The notes beneath the pieces are model-generated. The model saw nothing but the letters and a program-made list of their open reading frames with translations. It did no database searches and was not told the origin of the DNA. Positions 7,955-53,200 of a DNA stretch of 64,000 nucleotides are shown here, one piece after another; positions within the stretch are counted from its first letter, which is position 1, and every line of letters starts with the position of its first letter. The position numbers and the translations under genes are program-made. This DNA comes from Trypanosoma brucei (Eukaryota), in contig CM000207.1 in assembly GCA_000002445.1 (NCBI GenBank), forward strand, positions 1,248,001 through 1,312,000, read 5' to 3'.

Positions 7955-8959
7955 TCAAATTAAAAAGCATAAAAATGAAATTAGAAGTGCAAATAGTTTT
8001 TCCATCATATCTACATTTTGGTTATAAGCATAAGCACCATCAAAGGGTTTCCTCCTCATGTAAGATAACATTGGTAGCAACATTGTATCATCAAGAAGGC
8101 ATTGCTCCCTGTGTGCTGCGGTAAGATTGAGCCATGAGTTTTCAAGATACTTGTTGTCAAGTTCCGCCTTTACACTGGGAGTGCTGTAACATGTTTCGGC
8201 AGAGCAAACACTGCAATTGTTTTTCTTTATTGCTTCCTCAAACATTTGTGTCGTCAAATTCAGCTGTTTCTTTAGGTCGTGGAGAGAAGCTTTTTTCTTT
8301 TTCAAGATTACTTTTTTGTGATTAGTGATATGATGTGTAATATTGTGATTGCATTGTTGCTTTACCTTCTCTATTTCATCTCTCTTTTCTCTGTTTGCTG
8401 TTTCGAGAGTTGCATTTGTTTGACTTTTGTCTCTTAACGTTTTTGGATCCTCGATACATGGTGGGTTTTTTTGCTTTGCTCCAGTGCTTTTTTTGTAATT
8501 TTCATTCTCGACCCCTAACTGCCGGAGTTTATCCTTCAATTTTTCAATTTTTTCTTTATGCACTCTTATTTGAGTTGCCACAGTACTGTCGCATAGATTT
8601 CCGCCCTCCACACTCTCTCGCAAAAGTTCGTGATTCTCGATTAAGTCTTTAAATGTTTTATCATTGCTACAACTCCAAACCTTTCCGCTTGTAAAATCAT
8701 TAGACGCATCGCAAAACATCCACTTTTTATCATTTCCAAAAAGTTTCTCCCCACCCTTCAAAACAAAACTCCTCGCATCATCGACGCCCTCCTCTCTGTA
8801 AACATCTTCCCTCTCTTTTATATAATAGCATGGATTATCATCCGCCCATATTGTTACGCAAGATATCAGCAACAACACTCCAAATAGTATTTGCATTTTT
8901 CTAATGCTCCTAGAGTAGATGATATGAAATAAAGCACGCGTATATATTTTCCATAACAC
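7955..8959 (-). CDS. Gene A (variant 2): GPI-signal-bearing coiled-coil Cys-framework surface-type protein. The likely true start is the Met at 8896 (MQILFGVLLLISCVTIWA).
   Basis: Conserved C-terminal module and hydrophobic tail. Cys framework: KKWMFC, W-C-NDKT, LCDST, QQCN, CSVCSAETCY. Sequons NATL, NHNIT, NLTT, NNCS. Confidence 0.75.
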   Translation of the reverse strand: MLWKIYTRALFHIIYSRSIRKMQILFGVLLLISCVTIWADDNPCYYIKEREDVYREEGVDDARSFVLKGGEKLFGNDKKWMFCDASNDFTSGKVWSCSNDKTFKDLIENHELLRESVEGGNLCDSTVATQIRVHKEKIEKLKDKLRQLGVENENYKKSTGAKQKNPPCIEDPKTLRDKSQTNATLETANREKRDEIEKVKQQCNHNITHHITNHKKVILKKKKASLHDLKKQLNLTTQMFEEAIKKNNCSVCSAETCYSTPSVKAELDNKYLENSWLNLTAAHREQCLLDDTMLLPMLSYMRRKPFDGAYAYNQNVDMMEKLFALLISFLCFLI

Positions 8960-9172: not shown

Positions 9173-10048
9173 TTACATGTTTTCATTATATTTTGAATGA
9201 TTCCCTTCAGTATCTTCATGTGACACCCCACATTTACCTCCTGATTTTGTCCATCCATCTTTTCCATATAGTTTATCCAACTCTTCCTTTATTTTCACAT
9301 CATCCCAGCAAGCTTCAGCGTCACATGAGGGACACTTATTAATTCCAAGTTCTTCTAGTTGCTGTTCCTTTAGTTCTATTGCTTTCATAACATTTTTGAT
9401 TTCTTCATCAATTTTTTCAAGTTCAATATCGTATTCCTTTTCCATATTTCGCTTAATATTTTCACACTCTGTCATTTCCTTTTCAATAAGAGAGTTCATT
9501 CGAGCACCTTCATTTATGATGTTCTGTATCTTGGTATCAGTATCTGTTATTTTTTCTATCTGATCTTGGCATTCCTGCTTTGTCTCCTGTGCTTTTGCAC
9601 CCAATATCTCCAGGTTTTTATTTATCATATCTTGCTCCACAATTTTACTGCTCAGCTGTATCTCCTCATCCTTAATTCTTTGGATCTCTTCCAGCACCTT
9701 CTTTTTACAGGTAGTTACGCTGCTTACATCATTACTCCAATTGAATTTGTTAACGAGAGTTGTGGGTGTCCCATCAATAGAGGCGTCGCACATCCAAAAC
9801 ACTTTATTTGCTTCTCCCACCCTATTAGTGACGTTGCATATCATCCATTTGTGACGTCTACTCACGAAGTGATCACCATTTTCTATCACAGCCTCCATCA
9901 CTCCTTCCACCTCCTCCCTTCTCACCATACAGGTTTTGGCTTTCGACTCGCCAGTGAAAACCAACAATATCACTCCCGCCAATGATAAAAACATAAGTGT
10001 CCCATACTCTTTCATATTGTCACCTCGCATTATATATCCTTCAAACAC
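9173..10048 (-). CDS. Gene B (variant 2): secreted anchorless paralog. The likely true start is the Met at 10015 (MKEYGTLMFLSLAGVILLVF).
   Basis: Signal peptide, HKWMICNVTN...WMCDAS framework, long heptad-like coiled-coil, CPSCDAEACWDDVKIKEELDKLYGKDGW module. Confidence 0.75.
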   Translation of the reverse strand: MFEGYIMRGDNMKEYGTLMFLSLAGVILLVFTGESKAKTCMVRREEVEGVMEAVIENGDHFVSRRHKWMICNVTNRVGEANKVFWMCDASIDGTPTTLVNKFNWSNDVSSVTTCKKKVLEEIQRIKDEEIQLSSKIVEQDMINKNLEILGAKAQETKQECQDQIEKITDTDTKIQNIINEGARMNSLIEKEMTECENIKRNMEKEYDIELEKIDEEIKNVMKAIELKEQQLEELGINKCPSCDAEACWDDVKIKEELDKLYGKDGWTKSGGKCGVSHEDTEGNHSKYNENM

Positions 10049-26655: not shown

Positions 26656-28269
26656 TCACTGTGTTGACGGGGGATGGAACACATCCCTCACCAGCACTGC
26701 AGCCATCGCCAACATTTCACGCTGCGCCGTGGTATCTGCTACACGCAGCGGGGTCCGATTACTCCCTGCTGCCGCTGGACCAATGTGAGCAGCCGCCCAC
26801 CCACACGTGATGGCGTTGCTGGCAACCGCGAGTGCCGCACCGAAAAGAGGATGATGTTGAAGCCATTGACACAAGGTTCCTCGCACCTCATGAGGTTGGC
26901 GTACATCTTCGAGAAATATCGGTTCCCTGCGGCATTCCCTCAGACAAGAATCAGTTTCACCCCAAGGGGTGCCAACTGGGTTCTGCGAGTCGTCTCCTTC
27001 AGTTTCGTCCATCAAAAATAGCAAGACACGTTCACTGGATATCAGCAACTGCTGAAGCTTTGTTTCGTAGCATGAATGAACTCCTCTCGCGAAACCGTTG
27101 TCGCGACGGGAGTGACCCACACGCAGAGCCCACTCCTCCTCATCCGCATGCGCGGCTGCCAAAAGTTCAATGGCAACTCGCCACCACCGCGGTGGAGCCA
27201 CGTATAAGCCTGTTGACTTTAGCACAACTGCCTCCAGTCGCAACACTTCGCTAGAACTAAACACGTGTTGATCGAAGAAATGCTTATCCAGTATGGTAAC
27301 GAGATCCTCAACATCCGCGTTGACGTCTGCGTATTTCCAACTTATTAGGAGGCAGGCACTCATAAAAAGGAGGTGGTCTCGCGCCGTCAGGTCACTAATG
27401 GTTTTGCCACTGCCCTGCTCGTTGAGCGCAAACGCGTGATTCGCCAGCAACTGCAATGCCGTTATTGGCACCTCAAGAGCGTTTTTCCAAGACTGGTCGT
27501 ACCGTTGGAGTCCTAGCAGGAAGCTGAAGCCCATCAGCAATGCTGTCGCTGCAACCTCTCGTTGTTGCTGAAGCAACCAAACCAAAGCGGTGCTAGCCGC
27601 AGTTTGCTCCCGCTTGATTTCACCGCTGGCTAGTGAAAGGACGCTATCTGTGGGGAAGAGACGCAATTTTATAAAGTCATATGCTCGAGAACCTTCTTGC
27701 GGCACTGAGGACCCTTCCTCGCAACTTTGTGACGTCATTGCTGCAGCGACCTCATCAGTATACCACCGAAATGCGGAACAAAGGGACGGAGACATGTCTG
27801 TTGCTGTAGTGAATTCGGCTGGTGCATGAAGTGCCCATCGTGTGGGCGCCACTCTGGAACGAAGCAGGAATTGTTCATCTTCCCAATGCGCTCGTTGACT
27901 GTGCTTTCGCACACTTGTTTTTCCGGTGTCATTTGCATGATGATCAGTTGAAACCGCTGTCGTAACGGCTTTGATGCCTTCTGGTGGCATGCAGAGATCG
28001 CCTATCCGCGAATAGTCTGAACCTGCAGTTGCCGCATTCGAAGAATTGTCTGAATCACTAGGAGATAAGTTACTCCTCCCCACTTTCGCGGTAACAATTG
28101 GTGAAGAAAAACGGGGCACCTTTACTGGTGCGGTGCCGCCGACTTTTCTACTCGTTGTCATCCAATCGTCCCTATCAGGGGTATTTGCCACTGCACGACA
28201 ATGAAGCAACTGCTCGCTGAAACCACAAACTCTCTGCCTCTGGTTGGTCATGCCTTTCCTCTTCATCAC
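26656..28269 (-). CDS. Cyclin-fold protein (cyclin-like), with a ~200 aa Ser-rich N-terminal extension
   Basis: C-terminal half matches the cyclin box pattern: LQLLANHAFAL...LLFMSACLLISWKYADVNADVEDLVTILDKHFF...EVLRLEAVVLKSTGLYVAPP. Confidence 0.6.
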   Translation of the reverse strand: MMKRKGMTNQRQRVCGFSEQLLHCRAVANTPDRDDWMTTSRKVGGTAPVKVPRFSSPIVTAKVGRSNLSPSDSDNSSNAATAGSDYSRIGDLCMPPEGIKAVTTAVSTDHHANDTGKTSVRKHSQRAHWEDEQFLLRSRVAPTRWALHAPAEFTTATDMSPSLCSAFRWYTDEVAAAMTSQSCEEGSSVPQEGSRAYDFIKLRLFPTDSVLSLASGEIKREQTAASTALVWLLQQQREVAATALLMGFSFLLGLQRYDQSWKNALEVPITALQLLANHAFALNEQGSGKTISDLTARDHLLFMSACLLISWKYADVNADVEDLVTILDKHFFDQHVFSSSEVLRLEAVVLKSTGLYVAPPRWWRVAIELLAAAHADEEEWALRVGHSRRDNGFARGVHSCYETKLQQLLISSERVLLFLMDETEGDDSQNPVGTPWGETDSCLRECRREPIFLEDVRQPHEVRGTLCQWLQHHPLFGAALAVASNAITCGWAAAHIGPAAAGSNRTPLRVADTTAQREMLAMAAVLVRDVFHPPSTQ

Positions 28270-28768: not shown

Positions 28769-31471
28769 TCAATGGCATATGAGAAACGACTCCAACTGCT
28801 GTCGAGTATTGTTCATGAAGAGACTTCCTGTCAGTGGATTCCTGTATGGCGACGGTTGGTTCCCGCAGTAGGATATCCCTAGCTCCCTATCTGAAGTTTC
28901 TTCCAAATGCCGCGCAAGGCGCCGTCCAGCACACGTTAATCCTACCGCTCCCCAGCAGTTAGAGACCCCATCGGATGTAGTAAAAAAATACCGCGGGTGA
29001 CATACAACAAGTAGAGGAATCAGAGCGGGGTCACCGATGTGATCCCGGATAAACACCCGAATATCAATTGGTAGTAGCGTTCGGAGCACTGCGAATGAGA
29101 GGCAAGAGCCGTCGCCGCTACCGTCACCTCTATTGCTTTCGTCTGATTCATCCACATCATCTTCAAAATCCATCCCAATTTCCTCCGCCCGGCGCAACAA
29201 CTCCCGATGGAGGCAACACATGACCTCAAGAACCAACTTTGCTGGAAGCTTTTTCCTACTGGCCAGCGGCGGCTCCCCCGGTGTGGCGCGTGCACGAATA
29301 TACAACACTTGCCTGCCCCCTTCCGTTTTGTAGCAACCGTCAACAAACCTGTTGAACACAATCAACTTATATTTAGTCGCATTATCACCGCACGCCCCAC
29401 AGCCACTGTCCACTTTCGCCCCGATATGTGAGCCGGTCCGTTGGGCACTGCACTCTTCATATGGGAAGAAGAGACATGCAATGTTTTCTTTAATTTCGTT
29501 TTTAACAAGCGGAGACACGCGGCCCTGAACTTCCCCAATAAGCATTGGGTGCAGTGCTTCGTGCTGCCTAGTGGTGAAATATCGCATCAGGTGGCGCACA
29601 AAAGCTATGTTGGCACACGCCCCCATGGGGTACATTGCGCACGAAGGGGCGGCGACAATATCTTCACCCAGCGGCTGTACAAATAGCCTCGCCGATGGAA
29701 GTTGCTCCAGTTTCTCATAAACAGCAGCTTGCAACCCACAAAAAAGACGATCCAACATGTCTACGTTTTCCTCAGGGTCGGGCGCAGTCCCTTGCCAATA
29801 AGAAACAAAGCTCCACCACGGACGTTCGTCGACAACCAACCGACTCACTGGGGCATCTGCGACTTCTCCCTCATCACTCAATTCCCTCAGCACGACACTG
29901 TGAGGCAGTCGCCCTGTTGGGGGCATGTCCCCCTTTGCAGTAACTTGTGCTTCCGGCACTGCACAAAGTCGACGGCGAAGGAAAAGTACACCAATATCGG
30001 ATAGCGCTTCGTTTGATGACTCAAGGTGTGGTGATTGCCTCCCCTGGTGCTGAGTCTTGCGCTGCTGGCACTCAGCCAAAGGCCTCCCCCAGCACCACTC
30101 CACACCTAGAGTGCTGAGCGCTGACAGAAAAGCAACTTCTCGACGACGTCGCACGTCCTCACGATTCAACACGAAAAGAGAGGTGAGTGATGGGTGTGCT
30201 GCCAAAACACGGTTCCGCACCGCGGCAAAGTCAACAAAACCGTGGCCGTCGCTGTCAACTGACATGCCAGTAGAACTCACGGGGATTGTTTGAATGAACT
30301 GCAGCAGCGGCAAAAGACTCTGTGAAAGACGATAGCGTTCCATTGATGAGGGGGCGATGATTCGCTCCCCCATATGCATTACGGTGTGAGCTTCACCAAC
30401 AGGAGGAGAAGGAGCAGAGTTGACGGGTACGTGGTGTGACTGGGTCGGTGAAGCCGCTTCGCTTCTCACAGTAGTCGATTCAGCCCCCCTTGCGCTACCC
30501 ATTCCACAACCATCCCTCACACGCACAACAGAACCGTTGCTAGAAAACGCAAACAGCTCACACTCGTATACCAGCAAAAGCCGTTTGATGTCATTGGACA
30601 ACTCGCGGCGTGTGAAGCTCGTTGCAGCGTGGCTTAGCGACGCACGATGAATGACTTTTAGTGGCACTGGACGCCTCTCACCGCAACCATTCGAAGCTTC
30701 CAACGTGCGCACGAGCGCAGCGATTTCAGTAGCCAACTCCCGCACGCCGGGTCTAACACGGATCACAAGTTTCTCGTCTGCGCCTCTGCTTTCAGGACTG
30801 ATTTTCCCATCAAGTGATGTTCGGGACGAAGACGGCGATAAGGTGAACACGCATGTACTCTGAATTCGACTCGTAAGGAGCTGCTTGTTGTGTTCCACCC
30901 CAACCCCAGCTCCCACTAATCGAACAGGAGATCCGGCGCCAGGAACCAATCGCGAGAGCAATGGCTGAAAATGTTCTTCCATGTATTCCAATGGCACTGG
31001 CGGATAAAAAGGCGCGCTTATCGTCACACCGCCCCACGTGTCAGCAGTTGTGGTTGCAATTGCTTCACCCAAATCCACCCCTTTCCCATTCGCCATTTCA
31101 CGCTGTTCGTTGAGATGCCGTCGATACATCACTAGCACCGCCGCAACCTCGGTGGTTATTTCCCCAGCATCGAGCAAAGGTGTTCCCACGGCGGGAAGTG
31201 GCCCTGACAGAACATTTGGTGGTGATGATGTAACGGGTTTTGTGGTCTGTGGTTGTCGCTGTGGTGGCGGGACCATGTGCTTCACAGATGATGCCACACT
31301 TGCTCTTGGCCCCTTGCTAAATAAAATTGCGCTCTCACTGTTCCTCCCACTGAAACTCGACGAAGCCAACCGTGCTTCCACCATTGGAGAATCAAAAATA
31401 AGCCCTACACACCGATGGACGCACGGGCGGCATCCCGCTAGAGGTTGCCGAAGTTTCAATAAAACCTGCAT
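28769..31471 (-). CDS. Hypothetical protein, 900 aa (orphan)
   Basis: Uninterrupted 2.7 kb minus-strand ORF in the same polycistron. No domain recognised by eye. Confidence 0.7.
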   Translation of the reverse strand: MQVLLKLRQPLAGCRPCVHRCVGLIFDSPMVEARLASSSFSGRNSESAILFSKGPRASVASSVKHMVPPPQRQPQTTKPVTSSPPNVLSGPLPAVGTPLLDAGEITTEVAAVLVMYRRHLNEQREMANGKGVDLGEAIATTTADTWGGVTISAPFYPPVPLEYMEEHFQPLLSRLVPGAGSPVRLVGAGVGVEHNKQLLTSRIQSTCVFTLSPSSSRTSLDGKISPESRGADEKLVIRVRPGVRELATEIAALVRTLEASNGCGERRPVPLKVIHRASLSHAATSFTRRELSNDIKRLLLVYECELFAFSSNGSVVRVRDGCGMGSARGAESTTVRSEAASPTQSHHVPVNSAPSPPVGEAHTVMHMGERIIAPSSMERYRLSQSLLPLLQFIQTIPVSSTGMSVDSDGHGFVDFAAVRNRVLAAHPSLTSLFVLNREDVRRRREVAFLSALSTLGVEWCWGRPLAECQQRKTQHQGRQSPHLESSNEALSDIGVLFLRRRLCAVPEAQVTAKGDMPPTGRLPHSVVLRELSDEGEVADAPVSRLVVDERPWWSFVSYWQGTAPDPEENVDMLDRLFCGLQAAVYEKLEQLPSARLFVQPLGEDIVAAPSCAMYPMGACANIAFVRHLMRYFTTRQHEALHPMLIGEVQGRVSPLVKNEIKENIACLFFPYEECSAQRTGSHIGAKVDSGCGACGDNATKYKLIVFNRFVDGCYKTEGGRQVLYIRARATPGEPPLASRKKLPAKLVLEVMCCLHRELLRRAEEIGMDFEDDVDESDESNRGDGSGDGSCLSFAVLRTLLPIDIRVFIRDHIGDPALIPLLVVCHPRYFFTTSDGVSNCWGAVGLTCAGRRLARHLEETSDRELGISYCGNQPSPYRNPLTGSLFMNNTRQQLESFLICH

Positions 31472-32735: not shown

Positions 32736-34361
32736 TTAACACACCAAAAGTTCGCAAATCACTGGTGGGTACGGTTCCCTCAGCCGGTCCGACTTACCAG
32801 GCGAAACTTGCGGTAGGGGCGGCCACAAGACACAACCCGGTGCTCGTGTATCACAGAGCTCTAAACCCCCATTCAGCGACACCCAACCCGTCCGCCACGG
32901 CACCAGTGTGAGTGTCAGCGTCGTCATTCCGTTCGGCTCAACAACACCCACGGGAACAGCCAGCGGCCCCGCATACACAAACGCTGGCGCCAGCAGCTCT
33001 GGCCGGACCCGCAATGCTAAATCAACGGTTTGTTGCGTGTGGTGGTTGACGATGGCACACTCAAACTTGACAGGGGTTCCCACTTGCGGTGACGTGGGCT
33101 CCATGTTGGTTACATGCAATTCCAACATCGGATGCCTGGGAAGCTCAAGCTGCACGACACCACTACCGTCTCTTCCACTGTCTCCATTTGGCCGCCTCCA
33201 GTCCCAAACCACGTAACCAACGTCGACAATCCGCGGTGCCACGGCACCTACTTGTTCGGCAAGAGGCATCTGTCCCAACATAAGGGAGCGCACCGCCTCT
33301 GGCCTCATGGTAAACTCAAAGAAATATCTACGTTTGTCCTTCGGACTCAGAAAAACGTCGTCTACTACCTCAATTCCACCGCTCAGGTGGCGCACATTGG
33401 CACCACTTATATCACATTCTTCCGCTTCCCCAGCGGAATTTGATTCGCTGTGCGGTCCCGTGGTCACTTGATTCGCCACTGCACTTTTAGAAGACGACAG
33501 TACTTGAAAAGTCTCCCCAACACGTAGCTCCACATTTTCCACAACAATCGGAACCGTTGCGACATTTTGCAGACATACTGTTAATGCATACCTCCTAGAT
33601 GGAAAAAAGGAATCCGATGACCCAACTGAGGCGCTCGGGCCCTTTTCTTGCAACTGCCTATCATTGTCACCACCTCTGCCAAACGACGCGGGGAGAAGAC
33701 GAAGTGACCGACGAACTTCAATTATCGCATGTTCAACCTCAATCGTCGATGCCCATGTCAGTCGTTTTTGCTCCTTGACAACATCAACACATGTGGCCAC
33801 CACGCTGAGGGTATACTGACCAGGGGATGAGAGGAGATGCTCTACAGTAAAGGAGACGTTTCCCCTGGCTTCAATTGCGGGGCACTCATGGTTTACGAGA
33901 GTCACGTGCCGCACGGATGGTGTGACGATATTAATTCGTATTACTGCTGTTGTTAGAGGATACGCTGCAGCGTTGTGGAAACTTAAGATCGCACGAAACG
34001 GTTGACCAACGAAGTGCTTACCGACTACGGACGGCAGCGAAAGAACGGAACTAACGCCTTGCATTGCCAGTCGTGCCGCCTCGCTTCGTCGCTGGGAAAC
34101 CAATGGATCGCCACTCTGTTTGACCGTCACCAGGGGATGGTGGAGCGGATTAGCGAGAACATCAAAAAGAATATCGCCTTCTTCCACTAGTTCTGGTAGG
34201 GACGACTGGGCCAATTCAGGTTTACGAAGTACTGCTGCCCTGACAGTGAGGGGGTTTGCCAAGATGGCGGGCATGTAATCAGTCGCTGAGAATACAGAAA
34301 CTCCCCCATCCTTTTCTCCCTTAGCCCCGTTGAAAGAGGGTGATACACCGTCTTTTGACAT
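32736..34361 (-). CDS. Hypothetical protein, 541 aa (orphan)
   Basis: Long ORF with balanced composition. No recognisable motif. Confidence 0.65.
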   Translation of the reverse strand: MSKDGVSPSFNGAKGEKDGGVSVFSATDYMPAILANPLTVRAAVLRKPELAQSSLPELVEEGDILFDVLANPLHHPLVTVKQSGDPLVSQRRSEAARLAMQGVSSVLSLPSVVGKHFVGQPFRAILSFHNAAAYPLTTAVIRINIVTPSVRHVTLVNHECPAIEARGNVSFTVEHLLSSPGQYTLSVVATCVDVVKEQKRLTWASTIEVEHAIIEVRRSLRLLPASFGRGGDNDRQLQEKGPSASVGSSDSFFPSRRYALTVCLQNVATVPIVVENVELRVGETFQVLSSSKSAVANQVTTGPHSESNSAGEAEECDISGANVRHLSGGIEVVDDVFLSPKDKRRYFFEFTMRPEAVRSLMLGQMPLAEQVGAVAPRIVDVGYVVWDWRRPNGDSGRDGSGVVQLELPRHPMLELHVTNMEPTSPQVGTPVKFECAIVNHHTQQTVDLALRVRPELLAPAFVYAGPLAVPVGVVEPNGMTTLTLTLVPWRTGWVSLNGGLELCDTRAPGCVLWPPLPQVSPGKSDRLREPYPPVICELLVC

Positions 34362-34808: not shown

Positions 34809-36539
34809 TTACCAATCGTCATCATCGTCGGTTTTACGTTTCGGCGGAAGTTTTCCGGGAGCCGGTGGTGGCGGTGGCGGAGGAGGAGGAGGAGGCGCAA
34901 CCTTTGGTGGCGGTCCCTTCGGCGGTGGCGCTTTCGGAGGGGGTGGTGGAGGTGGCGGTGGTGGAACTCCACCCTTTTGTGGGGGTGCCGGTGCGTTTCT
35001 GTTTATCGCCATACCCTTCGATGGTCCAGAGGCGGGAGGGCGCCTGCCATGATCGTCGTCTTCATCCTCACCGTCAGAGTGCATTCCCAATATCCCTTTG
35101 CGACGATTCGCAAGCAGAGAAGAAAGCGCATCAAGGTTGCTCTTCGTTGCTGGTTTAGGGGCCGGTTTAACATCCGATTTGGCGGCCGGCTTCGCGGGTG
35201 CCTTTGCTTGCCCGGGTGGTGGTGGTGGAGGAGGCGGGGGTGGAGCCGGTGGTGCATTACCAATTGGTAGTCCTTTCGTCGCAGCTGCTCCGGGTAATGA
35301 AGGCATGGGTGGTGGCGCTTTTATTGGTGGAGGGGGTGGCGCCTTCATTTTTCCCGCAAACATTGGTGGCGGCGGCGGGGGTGGTGGTGGCGCTTTACCG
35401 GGTGGTCGCAATCCACCTGGCGGTGGGGGTGGTGGTGGAAGCCCACTTGGCACGAGAGCACGTGAGGACGGGCCACCTGCTGCATCAGGACCTGCGGTAA
35501 TCGCCAATGCCTCCTGACCTTTCTTTTTATTTCGAGTCGACCCACTGCCACTTCCAACTGAATCACCCCTTTCCCCAAGCCGTCGCTGCCCGCTTGGCGC
35601 GATGTTGTCCTGGTCCTCCAAACTGTAGGCATTCCACGCAACCTCCGCAATGCCTTCAAGGGGCAAGTTTTCTGGGAGATCGTCCATCAGATTCGCCACC
35701 TCCTCCATCAGCGGGACGAAGGCGTATTCATCAGTCGACGCTTGGGTCACGTAATCGCGGTGCACATCTGATGTACCAAGTCGCTGCTTGGTGGCTACGA
35801 CACGCTCTTGCCGCTGTTGCGTCAGCACATCCATTTCATGGTACTCTTTGTAGAGGTTCTCCCTAGTATTAAATAATAATAGCGAGCTGACGCTCATGAG
35901 ATGTGCCGGTAGTCTCCCAAGGCCGCGATCCACACCACTATGATAGCGCCACGTCGCACCAAGCGGCATTAAGCTCTTAACTGTTGCCTCCTGCAATGGA
36001 TGCTGCGGTTTCATTAACCGCTGCTCTGCTCCAGGGCAATCAAGGCGACGGACGGGCTTCGGATATGCATCCTCCCCTTCCTGGCCTCCAAGCTGCCATG
36101 GGTCGGAGCCGTTGCCGCTATCGCCCCCGCTACTGCCCACCACTGGTGATGCACCCGAATCATCTGCTTGAATGATTGCTGGCATGACATACGCCCTTTC
36201 TGGCACACAGCCTCGATCCTCACACGGTGCGCGCCCTATTGGAAGCGTGTAGTGTTTTTGTTTTGGAAATCGAACCCTACTCTTCACCACCATCGCCTCC
36301 CTACGTCCTTGAAGCTGCTCGACTTGATCAGCACAAACCGCGATGCGTCCCTGAAGTTGCTCCAGTGTTTCGCGTGACCGCTCAACAGCCTGTTCAATGT
36401 TACCAAAGACACGTTCGCTTGTTTGATCAAGCCGCCCAAGAGCCCTGATGACGGACAGCATCGACGCATACCCACCATTTGTCAAGGGAACCGGCAGAGT
36501 ATACCCATGTATGGGTGTCATAGTGGTCTCCTTGTACAT
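34809..36539 (-). CDS. WASH-like nucleation-promoting factor (WASP/SCAR homolog family) with a poly-Pro region and a C-terminal VCA ending in Trp
   Basis: SVSSLLLFNTRENLYKEY matches the conserved WASH WAHD1 motif (human SSVSSLLLFNTTENLYKKY). Long PPPPPPPP tracts. LANRRKGILG (WH2-like) followed by an acidic DGEDEDDDH stretch and a terminal ...DDDDDW. Confidence 0.7.
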   Translation of the reverse strand: MYKETTMTPIHGYTLPVPLTNGGYASMLSVIRALGRLDQTSERVFGNIEQAVERSRETLEQLQGRIAVCADQVEQLQGRREAMVVKSRVRFPKQKHYTLPIGRAPCEDRGCVPERAYVMPAIIQADDSGASPVVGSSGGDSGNGSDPWQLGGQEGEDAYPKPVRRLDCPGAEQRLMKPQHPLQEATVKSLMPLGATWRYHSGVDRGLGRLPAHLMSVSSLLLFNTRENLYKEYHEMDVLTQQRQERVVATKQRLGTSDVHRDYVTQASTDEYAFVPLMEEVANLMDDLPENLPLEGIAEVAWNAYSLEDQDNIAPSGQRRLGERGDSVGSGSGSTRNKKKGQEALAITAGPDAAGGPSSRALVPSGLPPPPPPPGGLRPPGKAPPPPPPPPPMFAGKMKAPPPPPIKAPPPMPSLPGAAATKGLPIGNAPPAPPPPPPPPPPGQAKAPAKPAAKSDVKPAPKPATKSNLDALSSLLANRRKGILGMHSDGEDEDDDHGRRPPASGPSKGMAINRNAPAPPQKGGVPPPPPPPPPPKAPPPKGPPPKVAPPPPPPPPPPPAPGKLPPKRKTDDDDDW

Positions 36540-36900
36540 GGAATGTCAAAATATGACACTACAGTTCGCAAGCAATGAGGATAGTACGACCACCTTCCGC
36601 CTGGAATTTCTTCGCAAGGTTGGCCCCTCTGGTTCCCCTTTCCGCCAGTGGCAAGCACACATAATATCATCAAAAGATGGTCGGTATGTTAAATTGAGGG
36701 GGGGGGGCAAAGAGAGAGAGAGAGAGCGAGAAAAAAGGGGGAAAAATTAAACATAAATGCTAGCAAACACCCTGCGTTCCAACATGTGAGTCCAACAACG
36801 TTGCACCACAAGACGACAGACGCAAAAATCATTAAAAGGAACAGTTAAGCAGCAGAAAAGTAGAAATGAACGCTCAATCGAGCAAAAGAGCCGTGGTCGT

Positions 36901-37792: not shown

Positions 37793-38359
37793 TCAGTTGG
37801 GATCCATCGTCAGTTCCATGATAGCATTGACGATATCTCCCTTGTTGTTCCGAAGGGCGCGGATTGCTCCAATGCGGTCCGTTTTGCCTTGTGCCATAAC
37901 CACAGCAATCTCCTTATCGTCGAATTCGCCTTCCACAATCTCGACATCGTCGGGAGTCTGTTTGCTCTCAGATGGGGCAGCTGCTGCAGGAGTTTCACCA
38001 GCAAGCTCAGAGGTTTCCTCTCCTGCAGTTCCCACCTCCTCCACAAGGGCGCCAGACACCGCGCGAGCTGCGGCTTCCTGCGTTTGCATCGTTGTGTCGC
38101 CAAGCTGAGCTTCACCAAAGATTAGGAATGTGTTGGTTCCTGGAAAGCGGTACACCTCGGGTTGGTTCACCACAAAAGAGAGCGCCGCACGTTTGCGAAT
38201 GTGTACCTTAGAGATGTTTGGCTCAGGTTTCAAACCCATCTTGGCCATAGCCTTTGCGTAGCGCTTGGATGGCTTGGAAGCCTGTTGAGTGTCAGCAGCT
38301 TCGAGGGTTGGGACCTCGTCGTCTTCCACTGGAGGGTTTTGAACATCGTTAGCGCTCAT
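37793..38359 (-). CDS. NACA: Nascent-polypeptide-associated complex alpha subunit (NAC-alpha), copy 1
   Basis: NAC domain (NISKVHIRKRAALSFVVNQPEVYRF...LIFGEAQLGD) and C-terminal UBA-like IRALRNNKGDIVNAIMELTM. Confidence 0.9.
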   Translation of the reverse strand: MSANDVQNPPVEDDEVPTLEAADTQQASKPSKRYAKAMAKMGLKPEPNISKVHIRKRAALSFVVNQPEVYRFPGTNTFLIFGEAQLGDTTMQTQEAAARAVSGALVEEVGTAGEETSELAGETPAAAAPSESKQTPDDVEIVEGEFDDKEIAVVMAQGKTDRIGAIRALRNNKGDIVNAIMELTMDPN

Positions 38360-38760: not shown

Positions 38761-39327
38761 TCAGTTGGGATCCATCGTCAGTTCCATGATAGCATTGACG
38801 ATATCTCCCTTGTTGTTCCGAAGGGCGCGGATTGCTCCAATGCGGTCCGTTTTGCCTTGTGCCATAACCACAGCAATCTCCTTATCGTCGAATTCGCCTT
38901 CCACAATCTCGACATCGTCGGGAGTCTGTTTGCTCTCAGATGGGGCAGCTGCTGCAGGAGTTTCACCAGCAAGCTCAGAGGTTTCCTCTCCTGCAGTTCC
39001 CACCTCCTCCACAAGGGCGCCAGACACCGCGCGAGCTGCGGCTTCCTGCGTTTGCATCGTTGTGTCGCCAAGCTGAGCTTCACCAAAGATTAGGAATGTG
39101 TTGGTTCCTGGAAAGCGGTACACCTCGGGTTGGTTCACCACAAAAGAGAGCGCCGCACGTTTGCGAATGTGTACCTTAGAGATGTTTGGCTCAGGTTTCA
39201 AACCCATCTTGGCCATAGCCTTTGCGTAGCGCTTGGATGGCTTGGAAGCCTGTTGAGTGTCAGCAGCTTCGAGGGTTGGGACCTCGTCGTCTTCCACTGG
39301 AGGGTTTTGAACATCGTTAGCGCTCAT
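38761..39327 (-). CDS. NACA: NAC-alpha, copy 2 (identical tandem duplicate)
   Basis: Translation identical to 37793..38359. A ~695 bp duplicated block with a 968 bp period. Confidence 0.9.
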   Translation of the reverse strand: MSANDVQNPPVEDDEVPTLEAADTQQASKPSKRYAKAMAKMGLKPEPNISKVHIRKRAALSFVVNQPEVYRFPGTNTFLIFGEAQLGDTTMQTQEAAARAVSGALVEEVGTAGEETSELAGETPAAAAPSESKQTPDDVEIVEGEFDDKEIAVVMAQGKTDRIGAIRALRNNKGDIVNAIMELTMDPN

Positions 39328-43296: not shown

Positions 43297-45225
43297 TTAT
43301 TTTACACGCTTTGGTGGCTCCCTGCTGAGATGTTTCAGAGACCCGCCCCCAGCCGCAACAGTTGCAACTCCTTTCGTTTTGTTTGTACGATTTGAATCAG
43401 GCTGAGGTCTCGCCGTGCGTGCAGTCGCCCGCTCGCTGGTAGGGGTTCTGGAGGAAGTAGAACGACCTACAGTTGGTTTATCAGTTCTCAAAAAACGTGC
43501 TTTATTTTGATTCGCCGTGTCACGAGTGGCGATGGTGCGCCTTGCAGAAATACGCGGGGCAACGGAACTTTGACCACCGTCCGCTAGACCGCGTTTTTCT
43601 CTTTTCATTTGAGTTGCTGCCAGAAGCTCCGGGTGCGGAGCCGCGAGGAATGTTTGGGGCTCTCGAAGCATGGCTCCACCTTCCGAACATGCATCCGCAG
43701 CATCGGAATCTTGAAAAAATTCTGCATCGTTCTCAGGTACAGCTGTGGCGAGTGCCGCCGATGCGGTCTTGGATTGGTGTTGTTTGTCCTGTTGATATGA
43801 GTGTAAACATCTATTGTCATTTCCTCTAGTATCTTCAATATGTCCATGCAGTGACCTGGGAAATGGTTCCTCTACATCTTCCTCTAACTCCGCTAATCTC
43901 GTCTCAAGCGGTGTGTTTGGTAGGACGTCGGTCACTACACCCACAGGAACTGCACTTCCTTCATCTTCATACTGTCTCGTTCGTTGATCAAATCCAATGT
44001 GCGATGCCATCGGTATTGAAAACCGTGCATTAGACATTGTTAGTTGCGACGGGGCTCGCAACCGCTCTTCACTCAGCATGCTTCTATGTACATCTGTCGT
44101 ATGTGATAAGCTGCGTCCGAGTCTGCTCGCGAGACCAACGCTGTAGCGCACACCCGACTGATAGCGCCACCGCAGGCCACTGTCACCGACTAAAATATGG
44201 ATGTTGGACGTTGATGACAAGTTCGCGACAGCGCGCTGGGCCGCAACCGTTTCTTCATTTTGTCTAACGTCGATCAGGCGCAGGGATCTGAGGCACCGCA
44301 TCTTTTCCTTGTCTTTGCAACCAACGAGCTCCTCCACACATTTGCGCATGCCTATTTGTGACATGTTGTTTTCCGAGAGCCTTATATAACATAGCGACTT
44401 ACAGAAGGTTTGTTCCGCGGCCTCCGCTGCCTGTGATACGGGGGGGTTGCTATCGTTTTCAGCCATGAGAAACTGAAGCGATGTGTAGTTAGTGCTCAAC
44501 CTCTCACGTGCCGAGGGAGACAAACAAAACGACATAATTGAGGATGACCGCGATCTCTGTTCATCGTGTACCAATGACACCGCTGAATGCTGGTGCCTCG
44601 AGTTACCCACGTGCTCCAGAAAGTCACGCACAATCCACGGCCCACTCGCGTCGTCCAACAAACAATGCTGAAGATCCAACAGAAAGAGTTCGTACCGCCC
44701 TATTGGCAACGTACATTCAGCGTCAAGCGGAGTGCTTTCCCTCTTCACCCTCGCCAATTGATCCTCTCTGCCCTCGTCCGACACGTTGTCCTTCATTGCA
44801 AGAACCAATTTGGACAGAAGTGCCGAAAGACATTGCGTAAATACCCGACGGTGTTCGGCAACGTGAAGACGGCGGCCAATGGACGCAGAAGAATCCACCG
44901 CAAGTCCAACACGACCCGCACACTTTGGGCAACACAAAACTTTCTTGAGACGTAAAAATGCCTTGGGGTCTCTCGTGTCAAGTTCGCTTAGAGCAGTTAA
45001 TGTGCACTCCGGAATGAGTACCTCCGGTTCAACACCAAAATCAGACCTCAGAATGGATTCCGGTGCCTCGGGAGAACTCCTGTCCGCAAGCCGCAGCTCC
45101 GTGTACCATTTTAGTTCTTCGGAATCCCTTCCCCCATCGGCTGCTGGGGTCGACTGGTTTTCTTCTTTGGTACAGTCGGGTGCTGCAACACATGTGCGTA
45201 ACACAATGGAAAGATCACTCCCCAT
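43297..45225 (-). CDS. Hypothetical protein, 642 aa, with leucine-rich-repeat-like segments
   Basis: Long ORF. Segments such as LRLSENNMSQIGMRKCVEELVGCKDKEKMRCLRSLRLIDVRQNEE resemble LRRs. Ser/Thr/Arg-rich basic C-terminus. Confidence 0.65.
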   Translation of the reverse strand: MGSDLSIVLRTCVAAPDCTKEENQSTPAADGGRDSEELKWYTELRLADRSSPEAPESILRSDFGVEPEVLIPECTLTALSELDTRDPKAFLRLKKVLCCPKCAGRVGLAVDSSASIGRRLHVAEHRRVFTQCLSALLSKLVLAMKDNVSDEGREDQLARVKRESTPLDAECTLPIGRYELFLLDLQHCLLDDASGPWIVRDFLEHVGNSRHQHSAVSLVHDEQRSRSSSIMSFCLSPSARERLSTNYTSLQFLMAENDSNPPVSQAAEAAEQTFCKSLCYIRLSENNMSQIGMRKCVEELVGCKDKEKMRCLRSLRLIDVRQNEETVAAQRAVANLSSTSNIHILVGDSGLRWRYQSGVRYSVGLASRLGRSLSHTTDVHRSMLSEERLRAPSQLTMSNARFSIPMASHIGFDQRTRQYEDEGSAVPVGVVTDVLPNTPLETRLAELEEDVEEPFPRSLHGHIEDTRGNDNRCLHSYQQDKQHQSKTASAALATAVPENDAEFFQDSDAADACSEGGAMLREPQTFLAAPHPELLAATQMKREKRGLADGGQSSVAPRISARRTIATRDTANQNKARFLRTDKPTVGRSTSSRTPTSERATARTARPQPDSNRTNKTKGVATVAAGGGSLKHLSREPPKRVK

Positions 45226-45845: not shown

Positions 45846-46610
45846 CTACAGGCAATACTTCCGCTCAGTGAAGTATGTGTGGCGACCGAACCGCGACCGC
45901 CCCTCTACGGGCTCTACGGGCGTTTTACCGTGGACAGTCATCGTACATCCTGTTTCCGGGTTACCAGTATATAAGGTGATTGGCTCGTCTGAGAGATAAT
46001 CATTGCAAAGTGAATCAACCACTGGTAACTCCTCCGGCAGGCAGTGAACCTTCTGGTAGGTTGAAAGATACACATTGTTACCATCCATTCCAACGTTTGT
46101 CAGTTGCTTACGCTCAGCTTCTGTCGCGTTCTTTTCCTCACGTGCGGCGTTCAGGGCCACTTGAAGCAGCACTCGACTGCGTGCCCCCAAATCTGGACGT
46201 CGAAGTGTACGGAGATCAGCATTCTTTTCGCAATAGTCCTCACGATTTGTTGTTTGCAGGAATCGAGAGTGGGGATTTCGTGCATCGGATGTTACATAAG
46301 GCGTAGATGAATAACCGCCAGTAAACCGATCGTTTTTCCCTGGGCGAATGGCATCGAGACTCGCTCGCAGTACTGTAGTCGAGGTAAAGTCCATTTGCCC
46401 TTTGGGGTCTGATGGAACTGGTTGTTGCGCGAGGAGATCATCCTCCAGCACTTTTTCCTCCTGCCAGTTTCCACAGAGGACCTTTCGCGAGCACGTTGCA
46501 CCGTCTTTGTGCCGCTCCTTGTTGTAATGTTTTTCTTCAATCCATGTACCTGCGGGGCTGCATGTATCAATTGGCACGTACGGTTTCCGAGAGCGCAAGA
46601 GATGTGACAT
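45846..46610 (-). CDS. Hypothetical protein, 254 aa
   Basis: Clean ORF with balanced composition between two T-rich intergenic regions. No recognisable domain. Confidence 0.5.
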   Translation of the reverse strand: MSHLLRSRKPYVPIDTCSPAGTWIEEKHYNKERHKDGATCSRKVLCGNWQEEKVLEDDLLAQQPVPSDPKGQMDFTSTTVLRASLDAIRPGKNDRFTGGYSSTPYVTSDARNPHSRFLQTTNREDYCEKNADLRTLRRPDLGARSRVLLQVALNAAREEKNATEAERKQLTNVGMDGNNVYLSTYQKVHCLPEELPVVDSLCNDYLSDEPITLYTGNPETGCTMTVHGKTPVEPVEGRSRFGRHTYFTERKYCL

Positions 46611-51538: not shown

Positions 51539-53200
51539 CTACGTCCACACTAATAAATCACGCACTTGCGTTGAATTCAAATGGCTTGTATGGTATGAAA
51601 CCCTCCGTGGTGAGGGTGTTTGGGGTTGGTATGTTTCGCCAAAGACTATATTTGATTTTGTCACATGCTGCCCAGCGACGCGACCCACGCCACTTCTAAT
51701 ACGAGGCGATACCAACACTCCAGCTGGGTCGTAGAAATTATCTCCTCCTCCTGGTGCCGATGTGGCGCTTATGTCTCCTTTGGTTGGTGTGTTGGCGGTG
51801 CAAACACATTGACGGCCGTCCCTATTGTCTTCACCTTCTGAGAAATGTATGGGCTCTCGGCTGCTGGACAAACCACGGGGACCAACTTCCGCTGGAGACT
51901 CATCGCCAAAAGGTGTTGTGCAGTGCCTCCGGTCTGGGGTACTTGTGACACCTGCGGCGGCTGGATAGTTATTTCTCGGAGAATACAATGGTGTGGCAGA
52001 TTGGCTCACAGCCGTCCTCCTCACGTCCAGATCAGTTCGCCCAACCAAGAAAGGTGAAAGAGAACGACAACGCTGCGTCGCTTCTTTACGGCGGCTCCGG
52101 ATACCAAAAATATCATGATCCAAATACCCTGGATGCCCCTGCATCGATTCTGTGACACGGGGAGGCCGCTTACGGGGAGGTAAGGTATGTACGGGTTGTG
52201 TGGCCTCAAATGCATCCACGCCCTTCCTCGTGCGGATGCATGGACGTGGTGTGGTGGCGGCACTCGACCGTTCCTTTACCACAAGATTTCCGCCAAGGTT
52301 ATCCCATCGGTACGTCGACAACTGGTAACGGACTCGGCGCCCGGGTGTGATCGGATTGTACTCCTGTTCGTCGGGTCTGAAAGGATGAAATGTGGCTCTC
52401 CTTTGTGCAACCGTGTTGGGACGCCGCCCCAGTGGTGTTGTTTTTCGGCGCCCCTCTTGGGAATAAATGAACCGCGCCAGACTTCCCAGTCCGTCATCGT
52501 GTTTTACTGCAGGTTGCTTTCGCACAGAAGGGGTTGGAGAGGTAAAATCAAAGATTCGGCTTTTATTCATTTGATTTATTTTTGCGGTATTAGCGCGCGC
52601 CCTGAAGGGGTTCAACTCGGGATCCACGCGATGTTGCATCTCATAGAGGTACCGCACATCCTCCTTTTGGGTCATATCTAATCGATAGGCGTCCGGTCGC
52701 ATGTCCTCTAACCGCGTGTTACATAACAACCTGGATAACAACTGACTGGTCGACATGTTCTCCAGAGAACCATTTGGTTCAGGGGTTGGGTTTCTGCGAT
52801 TACTTTTCCGGTCACCTGAGTTGCTGCGGTTACTTTTCCGGTCACCTGAGTTGCTGCGGTTACTCTTCCGTTCGTTACCAATATGGGATCCTTTACTTGG
52901 AGTAGATCGCTTGCCATCGGTCTTTATGGAGGAACGTCGGTGCTCTGTAGTTTGGTTCACGCCGGTATGAGCCGCTCGACGTGCCGACGATGCACCACTG
53001 GCAACCAAGTTTTTCCTTGTCGGCGTCCCGGACATATGTGCTTCAACTACTGAGGTAACAAGTTCTTTTAGTAAGTAGAAGATCGAAGGAATAGATGAAA
53101 TCACAGAGGATGGGAAATGGGGGTCAGGTTGTTGGTGATTGCACATGTATACGCCTGTATCTGTGTGTGACTTCGTTATGCTCGACACAAAGACCAACAA
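51539..53200 (-). CDS. Hypothetical Ser/Arg/Pro-rich protein with 3x SNRSNSGDRK decapeptide repeats
   Basis: 553 aa ORF. A 30-bp tandem repeat at 52800..52880 encodes the repeats. Basic and low complexity. The true start is possibly the internal Met (MSGTPTRKN). Confidence 0.6.
   Translation of the reverse strand: MLVFVSSITKSHTDTGVYMCNHQQPDPHFPSSVISSIPSIFYLLKELVTSVVEAHMSGTPTRKNLVASGASSARRAAHTGVNQTTEHRRSSIKTDGKRSTPSKGSHIGNERKSNRSNSGDRKSNRSNSGDRKSNRRNPTPEPNGSLENMSTSQLLSRLLCNTRLEDMRPDAYRLDMTQKEDVRYLYEMQHRVDPELNPFRARANTAKINQMNKSRIFDFTSPTPSVRKQPAVKHDDGLGSLARFIYSQEGRRKTTPLGRRPNTVAQRRATFHPFRPDEQEYNPITPGRRVRYQLSTYRWDNLGGNLVVKERSSAATTPRPCIRTRKGVDAFEATQPVHTLPPRKRPPRVTESMQGHPGYLDHDIFGIRSRRKEATQRCRSLSPFLVGRTDLDVRRTAVSQSATPLYSPRNNYPAAAGVTSTPDRRHCTTPFGDESPAEVGPRGLSSSREPIHFSEGEDNRDGRQCVCTANTPTKGDISATSAPGGGDNFYDPAGVLVSPRIRSGVGRVAGQHVTKSNIVFGETYQPQTPSPRRVSYHTSHLNSTQVRDLLVWT
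52800..52880. repeat. 30-bp tandem coding repeat (2.7 copies)
   Basis: ttacttttccggtcacctgagttgctgcgg occurs twice exactly, then a degenerate third copy. It encodes SNRSNSGDRK on the minus strand. Confidence 0.9.

What the first reader, a model, noticed from the sequence alone, without database searches (positions are those of the whole stretch)
34809..36539. WASH-type Arp2/3 activator with canonical VCA tail in a kinetoplastid polycistron
The 576 aa product carries the conserved WASH WAHD1 signature (SVSSLLLFNTRENLYKEY), extended poly-proline tracts, a WH2-like LANRRKGILG, an acidic stretch and a C-terminal ...DDDDDW. The penultimate or terminal Trp in an acidic tail is the hallmark Arp2/3-binding element of WASP-family proteins. 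Kinetoplastids are often described as having Arp2/3 but few or no recognisable nucleation-promoting factors. A clear WASH homolog is therefore worth noting in connection with endosomal and flagellar-pocket trafficking. I am not sure whether this gene is already annotated as WASH in public databases.
Basis: partly seen in the sequence, partly recalled or inferred. Interest (0 to 1): 0.6.

Follow-up and report, generated by a model that had tools for sequence, protein, structure and literature searches.

The report
Known trypanosome WASH lacking WH2 motif

Summary
The 576-aa ORF is real. It lies at 34809-36539 on the minus strand, in a Trypanosoma brucei TREU927 polycistron. It is a WASH homolog: Pfam WASH_WAHD E=1.5e-30, 107 bits against a cutoff of 24.2. 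The acidic tail ending in Trp is conserved in 16 of 17 full-length euglenozoan orthologs.

The "canonical VCA" reading is wrong in one respect. LANRRKGILG is the C (central) helix, not a WH2. No WH2 (V) motif exists in any Trypanosoma ortholog, so the tail is CA, not VCA.

None of this is new. UniProt names the protein "WASH1 WAHD domain-containing protein" (Q38EF1). Kollmar et al. 2012 stated that Euglenozoa have only WASH and that Trypanosoma WASH lacks the WH2 domain.

- V is kept in early-branching kinetoplastids (Neobodo, Papus), and the V-less sequences form one clade, which fits a single loss.
- The C helix is the longest invariant block among five Trypanosoma species.
- Kinetoplastid WASH proteins carry poly-proline tracts between C and the terminal Trp, which 11 other WASH proteins lack.

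I found no experimental study of the protein. Verdict: correct family call, VCA claim overstated, already known, low interest.

The parts
34809..36539 (-). Complete CDS of T. brucei WASH (WASHC1 homolog), 576 aa plus TAA stop
   Evidence: ORF listing. Exact match to XP_827149.1 / Q38EF1. Pfam PF11945 E=1.5e-30.
36255..36539 (-). N-terminal block, aa 1-95: beta-hairpin (6-17) plus a long helix (24-76). First conserved block of the WAHD region; presumed assembly interface for the WASH regulatory complex.
   Evidence: AF2 pLDDT 80-92 over aa 21-80. L34, R65 and P92 invariant in 36 WASH proteins. Many distant WASH hits match in two stretches, about 24-96 and 204-318. The complex-assembly role is inferred by analogy, not tested.
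35940..36254 (-). Variable, poorly conserved insert, aa 96-200, between the two conserved WAHD blocks
   Evidence: Conservation drops to 0.34-0.36 among Trypanosoma species. pLDDT below 50. Gapped in the BLASTP alignment to mammalian WASH1.
35586..35939 (-). WAHD core, aa 201-318, including GLGRLP and SVSSLLLFNTRENLYKEY
   Evidence: Best Pfam stretch 201-318 against profile positions 144-265 of 292. Invariant runs RGLGRLP, SVSSLLLFNT and MEEVANLM.
35214..35444 (-). Proline-rich region 1, aa 366-442, with poly-P tracts at 368-374, 384-392, 401-405 and 433-442; candidate profilin-binding sites
   Evidence: Tract positions. Profilin binding is inferred from general knowledge and not tested.
35142..35213 (-). 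aa 443-466 (GQAKAPAKPAAKSDVKPAPKPATK): the position where a WH2 (V) motif sits in other WASH proteins; no WH2 here
   Evidence: V-motif HMM negative. WH2 regex gives no match. No predicted helix and low pLDDT. Agrees with Kollmar 2012.
35073..35141 (-). C (central/connector) motif, aa 467-489, SNLDALSSLLANRRKGILGMHSD: an amphipathic helix expected to bind Arp2/3
   Evidence: C-motif HMM hit at 472-484 (6.2 bits, iE 0.012, same position in all Trypanosoma). AF2 helix 469-483. L472, L476, R479 and R480 at least 90% conserved in 36 WASH proteins. Residues 472-489 are the longest invariant run among five Trypanosoma species.
35052..35072 (-). Acidic patch 1, aa 490-496 (GEDEDDD), directly after C
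   Evidence: An acidic patch in this position is present in all kinetoplastid orthologs.
34830..35051 (-). Proline-rich linker between C and A, aa 497-570, with poly-P tracts at 526-535 and 549-559; a kinetoplastid-clade feature
   Evidence: Poly-P tracts of at least 5 residues after C in 12 of 14 kinetoplastid-clade sequences and 0 of 11 other WASH proteins.
34812..34829 (-). A tail, aa 571-576, DDDDDW, with Trp as the last residue
   Evidence: Acidic run plus Trp at the C-terminus in 16 of 17 full-length euglenozoan orthologs. W576 at least 90% conserved.
36696..36745 (-). Upstream polypyrimidine tract (96% C/T); the first AG follows at 36638. Probable trans-splice acceptor region of this gene.
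   Evidence: Sequence read, composition. The function is inferred from the general rules of kinetoplastid mRNA processing and not tested.

Best explanation
The gene encodes the T. brucei ortholog of WASH (WASHC1). According to the literature this is the only WASP-family nucleation-promoting factor in Euglenozoa.

Layout:
- a two-block WAHD region (N-terminal hairpin and helix, then the GLGRLP/SVSSLLLFNT core)
- a long proline-rich region
- no WH2
- a conserved C helix followed by an acidic patch
- a second proline-rich linker
- a terminal DDDDDW

Most likely mechanism, inferred by homology and not shown: the N-terminal helix builds the protein into a WASH regulatory complex on endosomal membranes, and the C helix plus the acidic-Trp tail bind and activate the seven-subunit Arp2/3 complex to make branched actin for endosomal sorting and recycling. 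Because V is missing, actin monomers are probably supplied through profilin-actin bound to the many poly-proline tracts on both sides of C, rather than through a WH2.

Shown here: family membership, domain layout, absence of V, and strong constraint on C and A. Inferred: complex formation, Arp2/3 activation, location, and the route of monomer delivery.

On the confidence figure: identity as a WASH ortholog with CA but no V is about 0.97. The full mechanism, including activation and profilin-based monomer delivery, is much less certain. The single figure given is a blend of the two.
For: Family: Pfam WASH_WAHD E=1.5e-30. BLASTP against mammalian WASH1 gives E=2e-13. An exhaustive phmmer search with aa 1-330 gave 258 representatives at E<=1e-3; the named members of this family in the homology searches are called WASH, and two representatives named carry WASH1 / WAS family protein names. 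Database names are WASH1 / WAHD.

CA without V: motif HMMs, regex, AF2 helix 469-483 and nothing helical in 443-468, Pfam WH2 absent. Kollmar 2012 reached the same conclusion independently.

Constraint: 472-489 is the longest invariant run among five Trypanosoma species that are 48-71% identical overall. L472, L476, R479, R480 and W576 are at least 90% conserved across 36 WASH proteins. The terminal acidic-Trp is present in 16 of 17 orthologs.

Target and partners, from the literature: all seven Arp2/3 subunits are listed for T. brucei (PMC7581878). Strumpellin (PF10266) is annotated in L. major and is said to occur in Trypanosoma (PMC11684767).

Endosomal role and profilin link: loss of Leishmania profilin impairs endosomal sorting, and that function depends on poly-proline binding; the authors suggest trypanosomatid profilin works mainly with Arp2/3 (PMC10907219).

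Gene integrity: the start and the whole ORF are conserved in orthologs, with a polypyrimidine tract and AG upstream.
Against: I found no experimental data on this protein in the searchable literature.

The WASH complex partners (strumpellin, SWIP, FAM21, CCDC53) were not tested in the T. brucei genome here. The evidence is second-hand for Trypanosoma and direct only for Leishmania strumpellin.

In other WASP-family proteins, CA fragments without V bind Arp2/3 but activate it poorly (established knowledge, recalled from memory, not checked here). Activation by this protein therefore cannot be assumed.

The C-motif HMM score is modest (6.2 bits). The assignment rests on position, conservation and the predicted helix together.

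The AF2 model is of low overall confidence (mean pLDDT 55.9, pTM 0.29). No solved WASH1 structure exists in the PDB copy for comparison.

CapZ, a partner of the WASH complex elsewhere, is reported absent from T. brucei.
Confidence: 0.72

Rival explanations
1. One reading: a canonical V-C-A activator in which LANRRKGILG is the WH2 that binds G-actin.
For: The segment is an amphipathic helix followed by basic residues, which superficially resembles WH2. The V-motif HMM's best (still negative) placement in T. brucei falls on it (SSLLANRRKG, -3.9 bits).
Against: In every WASH protein that has both motifs, the RRKGI-type element is the second one, downstream of a distinct R.dLL.aIR...LKKV WH2. The T. 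brucei segment scores positive with the C HMM and negative with the V HMM. Deeper-branching relatives (Neobodo, Papus, P0011, P0016, P0017) have a separate V upstream of the same C element. Kollmar 2012 states that Trypanosoma WASH lacks WH2.
Confidence: 0.04
2. The protein binds Arp2/3 through CA but no longer activates it. It acts as a scaffold or recruiter within the WASH complex, or as a brake, and nucleation is driven by something else.
For: V is absent. CA without V is a poor activator in other systems (general knowledge, from memory). Conservation of C and A shows only that Arp2/3 engagement, or some other interaction, is kept, not that activation is.
Against: The V-less architecture, with conserved CA and dense poly-proline tracts on both sides of C, is kept across a whole clade from Trypanoplasma to Trypanosoma, as expected if monomer delivery moved to profilin-actin. 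According to Kollmar 2012 no other WASP-family activator exists in Euglenozoa, yet all seven Arp2/3 subunits are retained in T. brucei.
Confidence: 0.15
3. The C helix has taken over both jobs: it binds an actin monomer as well as Arp2/3, so C acts as a merged V/C element.
For: C regions of WASP-family proteins are reported to contact actin as well as Arp2/3 (general knowledge, from memory). The C block is extended and unusually invariant, 18 residues across five species. V-like and C-like features overlap weakly in the HMM test.
Against: There is no direct evidence. The core of the T. brucei C motif (LxxRRKGI) is the same as in WASH proteins that also have V, so no obvious new actin-binding feature has appeared.
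Confidence: 0.06
4. A chance ORF or decaying pseudogene whose proline-rich, GC-rich composition merely keeps a frame open.
For: The CDS is GC-rich (57% against 44% for the window), and several long overlapping ORFs occur on the opposite strand in the poly-proline part.
Against: Full-length orthologs with conserved start, domain order and terminal Trp occur in at least five Trypanosoma species and many other kinetoplastids. Pfam E=1.5e-30. Conservation is patterned: functional blocks are invariant and linkers vary.
Confidence: 0.01

Closest known systems
Trypanosoma WASH as described by Kollmar, Lbik and Enge 2012 (BMC Res Notes 5:88, PMC3298513)
   Same: This is the same protein class. It is the same gene or its direct orthologs: a WAHD region, a proline-rich region, a CA tail and no WH2, as the only WASP-family protein in Euglenozoa.
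   Different: Nothing substantive.
Metazoan and amoebozoan WASH (WASHC1), the Arp2/3 activator of the endosomal WASH regulatory complex
   Same: The two conserved WAHD blocks, including GLGRLP...SVSSLLLFNT.ENLYK.Y; a proline-rich region; the C motif L..RRKGI; an acidic tail with Trp.
   Different: No WH2. An insert of about 100 aa between the WAHD blocks. Far more proline (38% over aa 360-576, six tracts of 5-11 P). Poly-proline tracts between C and A. Trp is the very last residue. Complex membership and activity are untested.
Leishmania WASH-1-like protein (mentioned in PMC10907219 and PMC12472444; Kollmar 2012)
   Same: The presumed ortholog in the sister trypanosomatid lineage. It is described as the only candidate Arp2/3 activator there.
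   Different: It is reported to be only weakly similar to WASH1, to have VCA rather than CA, and to lack an aromatic residue in the A region. I could not retrieve it in three searches, so none of this was checked here.
WAVE/SCAR and WASP/N-WASP (other class I nucleation-promoting factors)
   Same: [quoted passage not shown]
   Different: Different N-terminal domains (WHD/SHD, WH1). These families keep one or more WH2 motifs. According to Kollmar 2012 both are absent from Euglenozoa.

Membership tests
WASH (WASHC1) family, Pfam PF11945 | WAHD (WASH homology) region at the N-terminus | tested here: met
   PF11945 E=1.5e-30, 107.1 bits against a cutoff of 24.2, in two stretches. BLASTP against mammalian WASH1 E=2e-13. 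14 columns are invariant across 36 WASH proteins.
WASH (WASHC1) family, Pfam PF11945 | Proline-rich region between WAHD and the C-terminal module | tested here: met
   Four poly-P tracts between aa 368 and 442.
WASH (WASHC1) family, Pfam PF11945 | Orthologs across the lineage with the same architecture | tested here: met
   T. congolense 71%, T. melophagium 56%, T. vivax 49%, T. cruzi marinkellei 48% identity. Also Trypanoplasma, Neobodo, Papus and many unnamed kinetoplastid-like sequences.
WASH (WASHC1) family, Pfam PF11945 | Acts within the five-subunit WASH regulatory complex (strumpellin, SWIP, FAM21, CCDC53 in the same genome) | not tested
   No tool here could search the T. brucei proteome by family. 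The literature gives strumpellin PF10266 in L. major (LmjF.27.1660) and 'Leishmania and Trypanosoma species' second-hand. Indirect support: the N-terminal helix 24-76 is confidently predicted and conserved. Two papers that tabulate the complex's distribution were not available.
Class I nucleation-promoting factor with a complete VCA module | V: at least one WH2 motif that binds G-actin | tested here: not met
   The V HMM gives no positive score in any Trypanosoma ortholog. A relaxed WH2 regex gives 0 hits. No Pfam WH2 at E<=10. No helix at aa 443-468. Same conclusion in Kollmar 2012. It is therefore not filed as a canonical VCA protein.
Class I nucleation-promoting factor with a complete VCA module | C: central amphipathic helix with the conserved basic core | tested here: met
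   C HMM hit at 472-484, 6.2 bits, iE 0.012, weak but at the same position in all orthologs. L472, L476, R479 and R480 at least 90% conserved. AF2 helix 469-483. 18-residue invariant run.
Class I nucleation-promoting factor with a complete VCA module | A: acidic tail with a conserved Trp | tested here: met
   DDDDDW at 571-576. Present in 16 of 17 full-length euglenozoan orthologs. W576 at least 90% conserved.
Class I nucleation-promoting factor with a complete VCA module | Arp2/3 complex present in the same organism | not tested
   Literature only: all seven subunits are listed with T. brucei gene IDs in PMC7581878.
Class I nucleation-promoting factor with a complete VCA module | Stimulates Arp2/3-dependent actin nucleation | not testable with these tools
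   Needs biochemistry. No published assay was found.

The most novel reading that the evidence does not exclude
The V-less kinetoplastid WASH has moved actin-monomer delivery entirely to profilin-actin. The poly-proline tracts on both sides of the C helix, including the clade-specific tracts between C and the terminal Trp, would dock profilin-actin next to bound Arp2/3. The WH2-like helix that trypanosomatid profilin carries (PMC10907219) would then do in trans what V does in cis. That would be a split VCA, with V supplied by a different protein. The evidence here does not exclude this. What speaks for it is the coexistence of a V-less WASH, dense poly-proline around C, and a profilin with a WH2-like insert whose loss impairs endosomal sorting. 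What speaks against a strict link is that Leishmania WASH is reported to keep V although its profilin has the insert.
Probability: 0.15. Interest if true: 0.55.

Novelty: already known. Interest (0 to 1): 0.22.

Why it matters
WASH appears to be the only WASP-family Arp2/3 activator in trypanosomes, whose endocytosis and recycling all pass through the flagellar pocket and an actin-dependent endosomal system. This gene is therefore the obvious handle on how branched actin is made there. That point has been available since 2012, but trypanosomatid actin reviews often omit it: the 2020 inventory in PMC7581878 never mentions WASH. I found no experimental work on the protein. The practical value of this check is corrective. 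The protein should be described as a WAHD-PRR-CA protein without WH2, not as a canonical VCA activator, and any functional study should test whether and how a V-less WASH activates Arp2/3.

Tried and rejected
1. PDB sequence searches with the T. brucei protein and with a mammalian WASH1 gave no WASH1 chain in the PDB copy, so no comparison with a solved structure was possible.

2. I did not run a fold search on the AF2 model. With pTM 0.29 and mean pLDDT 55.9, matches would be meaningless, and Pfam already settles the family.

3. A Leishmaniinae WASH was sought with the full protein, with aa 1-330, and with a 12-sequence euglenozoan WAHD profile. It was never returned. The word index is patchy (T. 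vivax was found but not), so the absence says little. The exhaustive search lists only the best 150 of 258 hits, without names.

4. WASH complex partners in T. brucei:
- No tool searches a eukaryotic proteome by family.
- A search with human strumpellin was rejected because metazoan hits would fill the candidate list and the output before any trypanosome protein appeared.
- Derivery & Gautreau 2010 and Veltman & Insall 2010 were not held.
- Three other papers had nothing on trypanosome WASH partners.

5. The names of the unnamed orthologs P0009-P0017 and P0139 could not be recovered.

6. The sigma-70 promoter and terminator scan is irrelevant to a kinetoplastid gene.

7. Gene neighbourhood: the neighbours are unrelated housekeeping genes. 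TRAPPC13 lies next door, but adjacency in a kinetoplastid polycistron carries no functional meaning.

8. Searches for experimental work under the names WASH1, TbWASH, WAHD and Q38EF1 returned only buffer names and author names.
Full report
WHAT IS THERE

The window holds a 576-aa ORF starting at an ATG, at exactly 34809-36539, on the minus strand. The protein is identical to Trypanosoma brucei brucei TREU927 XP_827149.1 / EAN76819.1 / UniProt Q38EF1, so the window is T. brucei DNA; the contigs that carry this protein are megabase-scale.

Of the 29 ORFs of at least 180 aa in the window, 28 are on the minus strand, as expected for a kinetoplastid polycistron. The exception overlaps a longer minus-strand ORF.

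The immediate neighbours are unrelated housekeeping genes: TRAPPC13, ribosomal protein L10, two copies of NAC-alpha, a DnaJ/TMEM185 protein and pescadillo. Gene order therefore says nothing about function.

About 160-210 nt upstream of the ATG, on the coding strand, lies a 50-nt tract that is 96% pyrimidine, followed by AG dinucleotides. This is the usual arrangement of a trans-splice acceptor region. That reading is an inference from general kinetoplastid biology.

IS IT WASH?

Yes.
- Pfam WASH_WAHD (PF11945) matches with E=1.5e-30 and 107 bits against a gathering cutoff of 24.2. It is the only Pfam family found, even at E<=10.
- BLASTP against a mammalian WASH1 aligns aa 33-299 with E=2e-13. 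The alignment includes the near-identical block GLG.LP...SVSSLLLFNT.ENLYK.Y.
- An exhaustive HMMER search with aa 1-330 found 258 cluster representatives at E<=1e-3. That search returns no names. The named members of the family are called WASH proteins, and two of the new representatives carry WASH1 / WAS family protein names.
- In a 36-sequence alignment from kinetoplastids to animals, 14 columns are invariant.

THE C-TERMINAL MODULE

Non-kinetoplastid WASH proteins retrieved here show a uniform order:
- a WH2 (R.dLL.aIR.g..LKKV)
- about 20-40 residues later, the C motif (GDLmsdL...L..RRKGIsG)
- a linker
- an acidic stretch with Trp

I built small HMMs for V and for C from 11-12 of these sequences.
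- The C model places T. brucei LSSLLANRRKGIL at 472-484 (6.2 bits, iE 0.012). The four other Trypanosoma orthologs match at the equivalent position.
- The V model has no positive score in any of them. Its best, still negative, placement in four of the five, T. brucei included, falls on the C motif itself.
- A relaxed generic WH2 pattern finds nothing in Trypanosoma or its V-less relatives, but it does find the V motif of the outgroups.
- AlphaFold2 with a 36-sequence alignment gives a low-confidence model overall (mean pLDDT 55.9), as expected for a largely disordered protein. It has two confident elements: a hairpin plus a long helix at 6-76 (pLDDT 80-92), and a helix at 469-483 on the C motif. 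Nothing helical is predicted at 443-468, where V would sit.

The acidic-Trp tail is real and conserved. Sixteen of 17 full-length euglenozoan orthologs end in an acidic run with Trp, and W576 is at least 90% conserved across all 36 aligned WASH proteins.

CONSTRAINT

Among five Trypanosoma species that are only 48-71% identical overall, the longest invariant run in the whole protein is LSSLLANRRKGILGMHSD (472-489). It is longer than any invariant run in the WAHD region. The CA module is therefore under strong purifying selection despite the loss of V.

WHAT IS ALREADY KNOWN

- UniProt names the protein 'WASH1 WAHD domain-containing protein'. The T. equiperdum record says 'WAHD domain of WASH complex', and the T. 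melophagium ortholog is named WASH1. The original TREU927 GenBank record still says 'hypothetical protein, conserved'.
- The Leishmania literature mentions a weak WASH-1 homolog as the only candidate activator.
- A 2020 review lists all seven Arp2/3 subunits for T. brucei but never mentions WASH.
- I found no experimental study of the trypanosome protein.

(a) Distribution of V.
- Neobodo designis (P0141), the prokinetoplastid Papus ankaliazontas (P0143), and the unnamed sequences P0011, P0016, P0017 and P0145 keep a recognisable V upstream of C.
- The five Trypanosoma species, Trypanoplasma borreli and six unnamed sequences lack it.
- In a rough neighbour-joining tree of the WAHD region, the V-less sequences form one clade, which fits a single loss.

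Caveats: the tree is crude, most of the sequences are unnamed metagenomic ones, the Neobodo V score is weak (0.9 bits), and Kollmar's report of VCA in Leishmania would not fit a single loss. I could not retrieve any Leishmaniinae WASH to check this.

(b) The linker between C and A. In 12 of 14 kinetoplastid-clade sequences this linker contains poly-proline tracts of at least five residues. T. brucei has two, of 10 and 11 prolines. None of 11 other WASH proteins has one there.

HOW IT MOST LIKELY WORKS

This section rests on homology with WASH in animals and Dictyostelium (established knowledge, from memory). The N-terminal helix would assemble the protein into the WASH regulatory complex on endosomes. 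The C helix and the acidic-Trp tail would engage Arp2/3 to nucleate branched actin for sorting and recycling.

The target is present according to the literature. At least strumpellin is annotated in trypanosomatids. I could not test the partners in T. brucei itself.

Because V normally hands an actin monomer to Arp2/3, and CA alone is a poor activator elsewhere (from memory), some substitute is needed. The most economical candidate is profilin-actin docked on the numerous poly-proline tracts on both sides of C. This fits the finding that Leishmania profilin needs its poly-proline-binding site for endosomal sorting and carries a WH2-like helix. It remains speculation.

The main rival is that the protein binds Arp2/3 but does not activate it.

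VERDICT

The family assignment is right. The 'canonical VCA' claim is wrong, because V is absent and the supposed WH2 is C. Both the gene and this deviation are already in the literature and the databases. Interest is low. The open question worth an experiment is how a V-less WASH drives Arp2/3.

Noticed in passing
window 1-24300: A tandem array with a period of about 5.75 kb and 4-5 copies (segments 85-100% identical). Each unit carries two minus-strand ORFs of about 290-370 aa, e.g. 7955-8959 and 9173-10048. The 7955-8959 ORF has a signal-peptide-like N-terminus and a hydrophobic C-terminus (possibly a GPI-anchor signal); the 9173-10048 ORF also has a hydrophobic N-terminal segment. Both have Cys-containing, coiled-coil-rich bodies. 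There was no Pfam match and no meaningful PDB match. They look like a trypanosome-specific surface-protein gene family.
   Followed up: partly
window 37793-38359 and 38761-39327: Two copies of a 188-aa NAC-alpha / HYPK-UBA gene in tandem, 968 bp apart; the compared 300-nt segment is 100% identical and the two proteins give identical Pfam scores. The other assembly seen shows only one copy over the corresponding stretch, so copy number may vary or be collapsed in that assembly.
   Followed up: partly
window 32736-34361: The gene immediately downstream of WASH encodes a TRAPPC13 homolog (PF06159, PF23643), another membrane-trafficking factor. In a kinetoplastid polycistron this adjacency is most likely coincidental.
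   Followed up: no
window 26656-28269, 28769-31471, 43297-45225, 45846-46610, 51539-53200: Five sizeable minus-strand ORFs (254-900 aa) in the same polycistron have no Pfam match at E<=1e-3. They are presumably kinetoplastid-specific proteins.
   Followed up: no
P0017, P0143 and P0145 (related proteins, not in the window): The deeper-branching euglenozoan WASH proteins vary at the tail. P0017 ends in DDDDFD, with Phe in place of Trp. Papus ends in DDEWK. P0145 carries about 14 tandem GGMPPPPP repeats.
   Followed up: no
window 35098-35866, plus strand: Several ORFs of 100-139 aa on the opposite strand overlap the proline-rich part of the WASH CDS. They translate to Gly-rich or Trp/Arg-rich low-complexity sequence. 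They are the expected mirror image of CCN codon runs, not genes.
   Followed up: no
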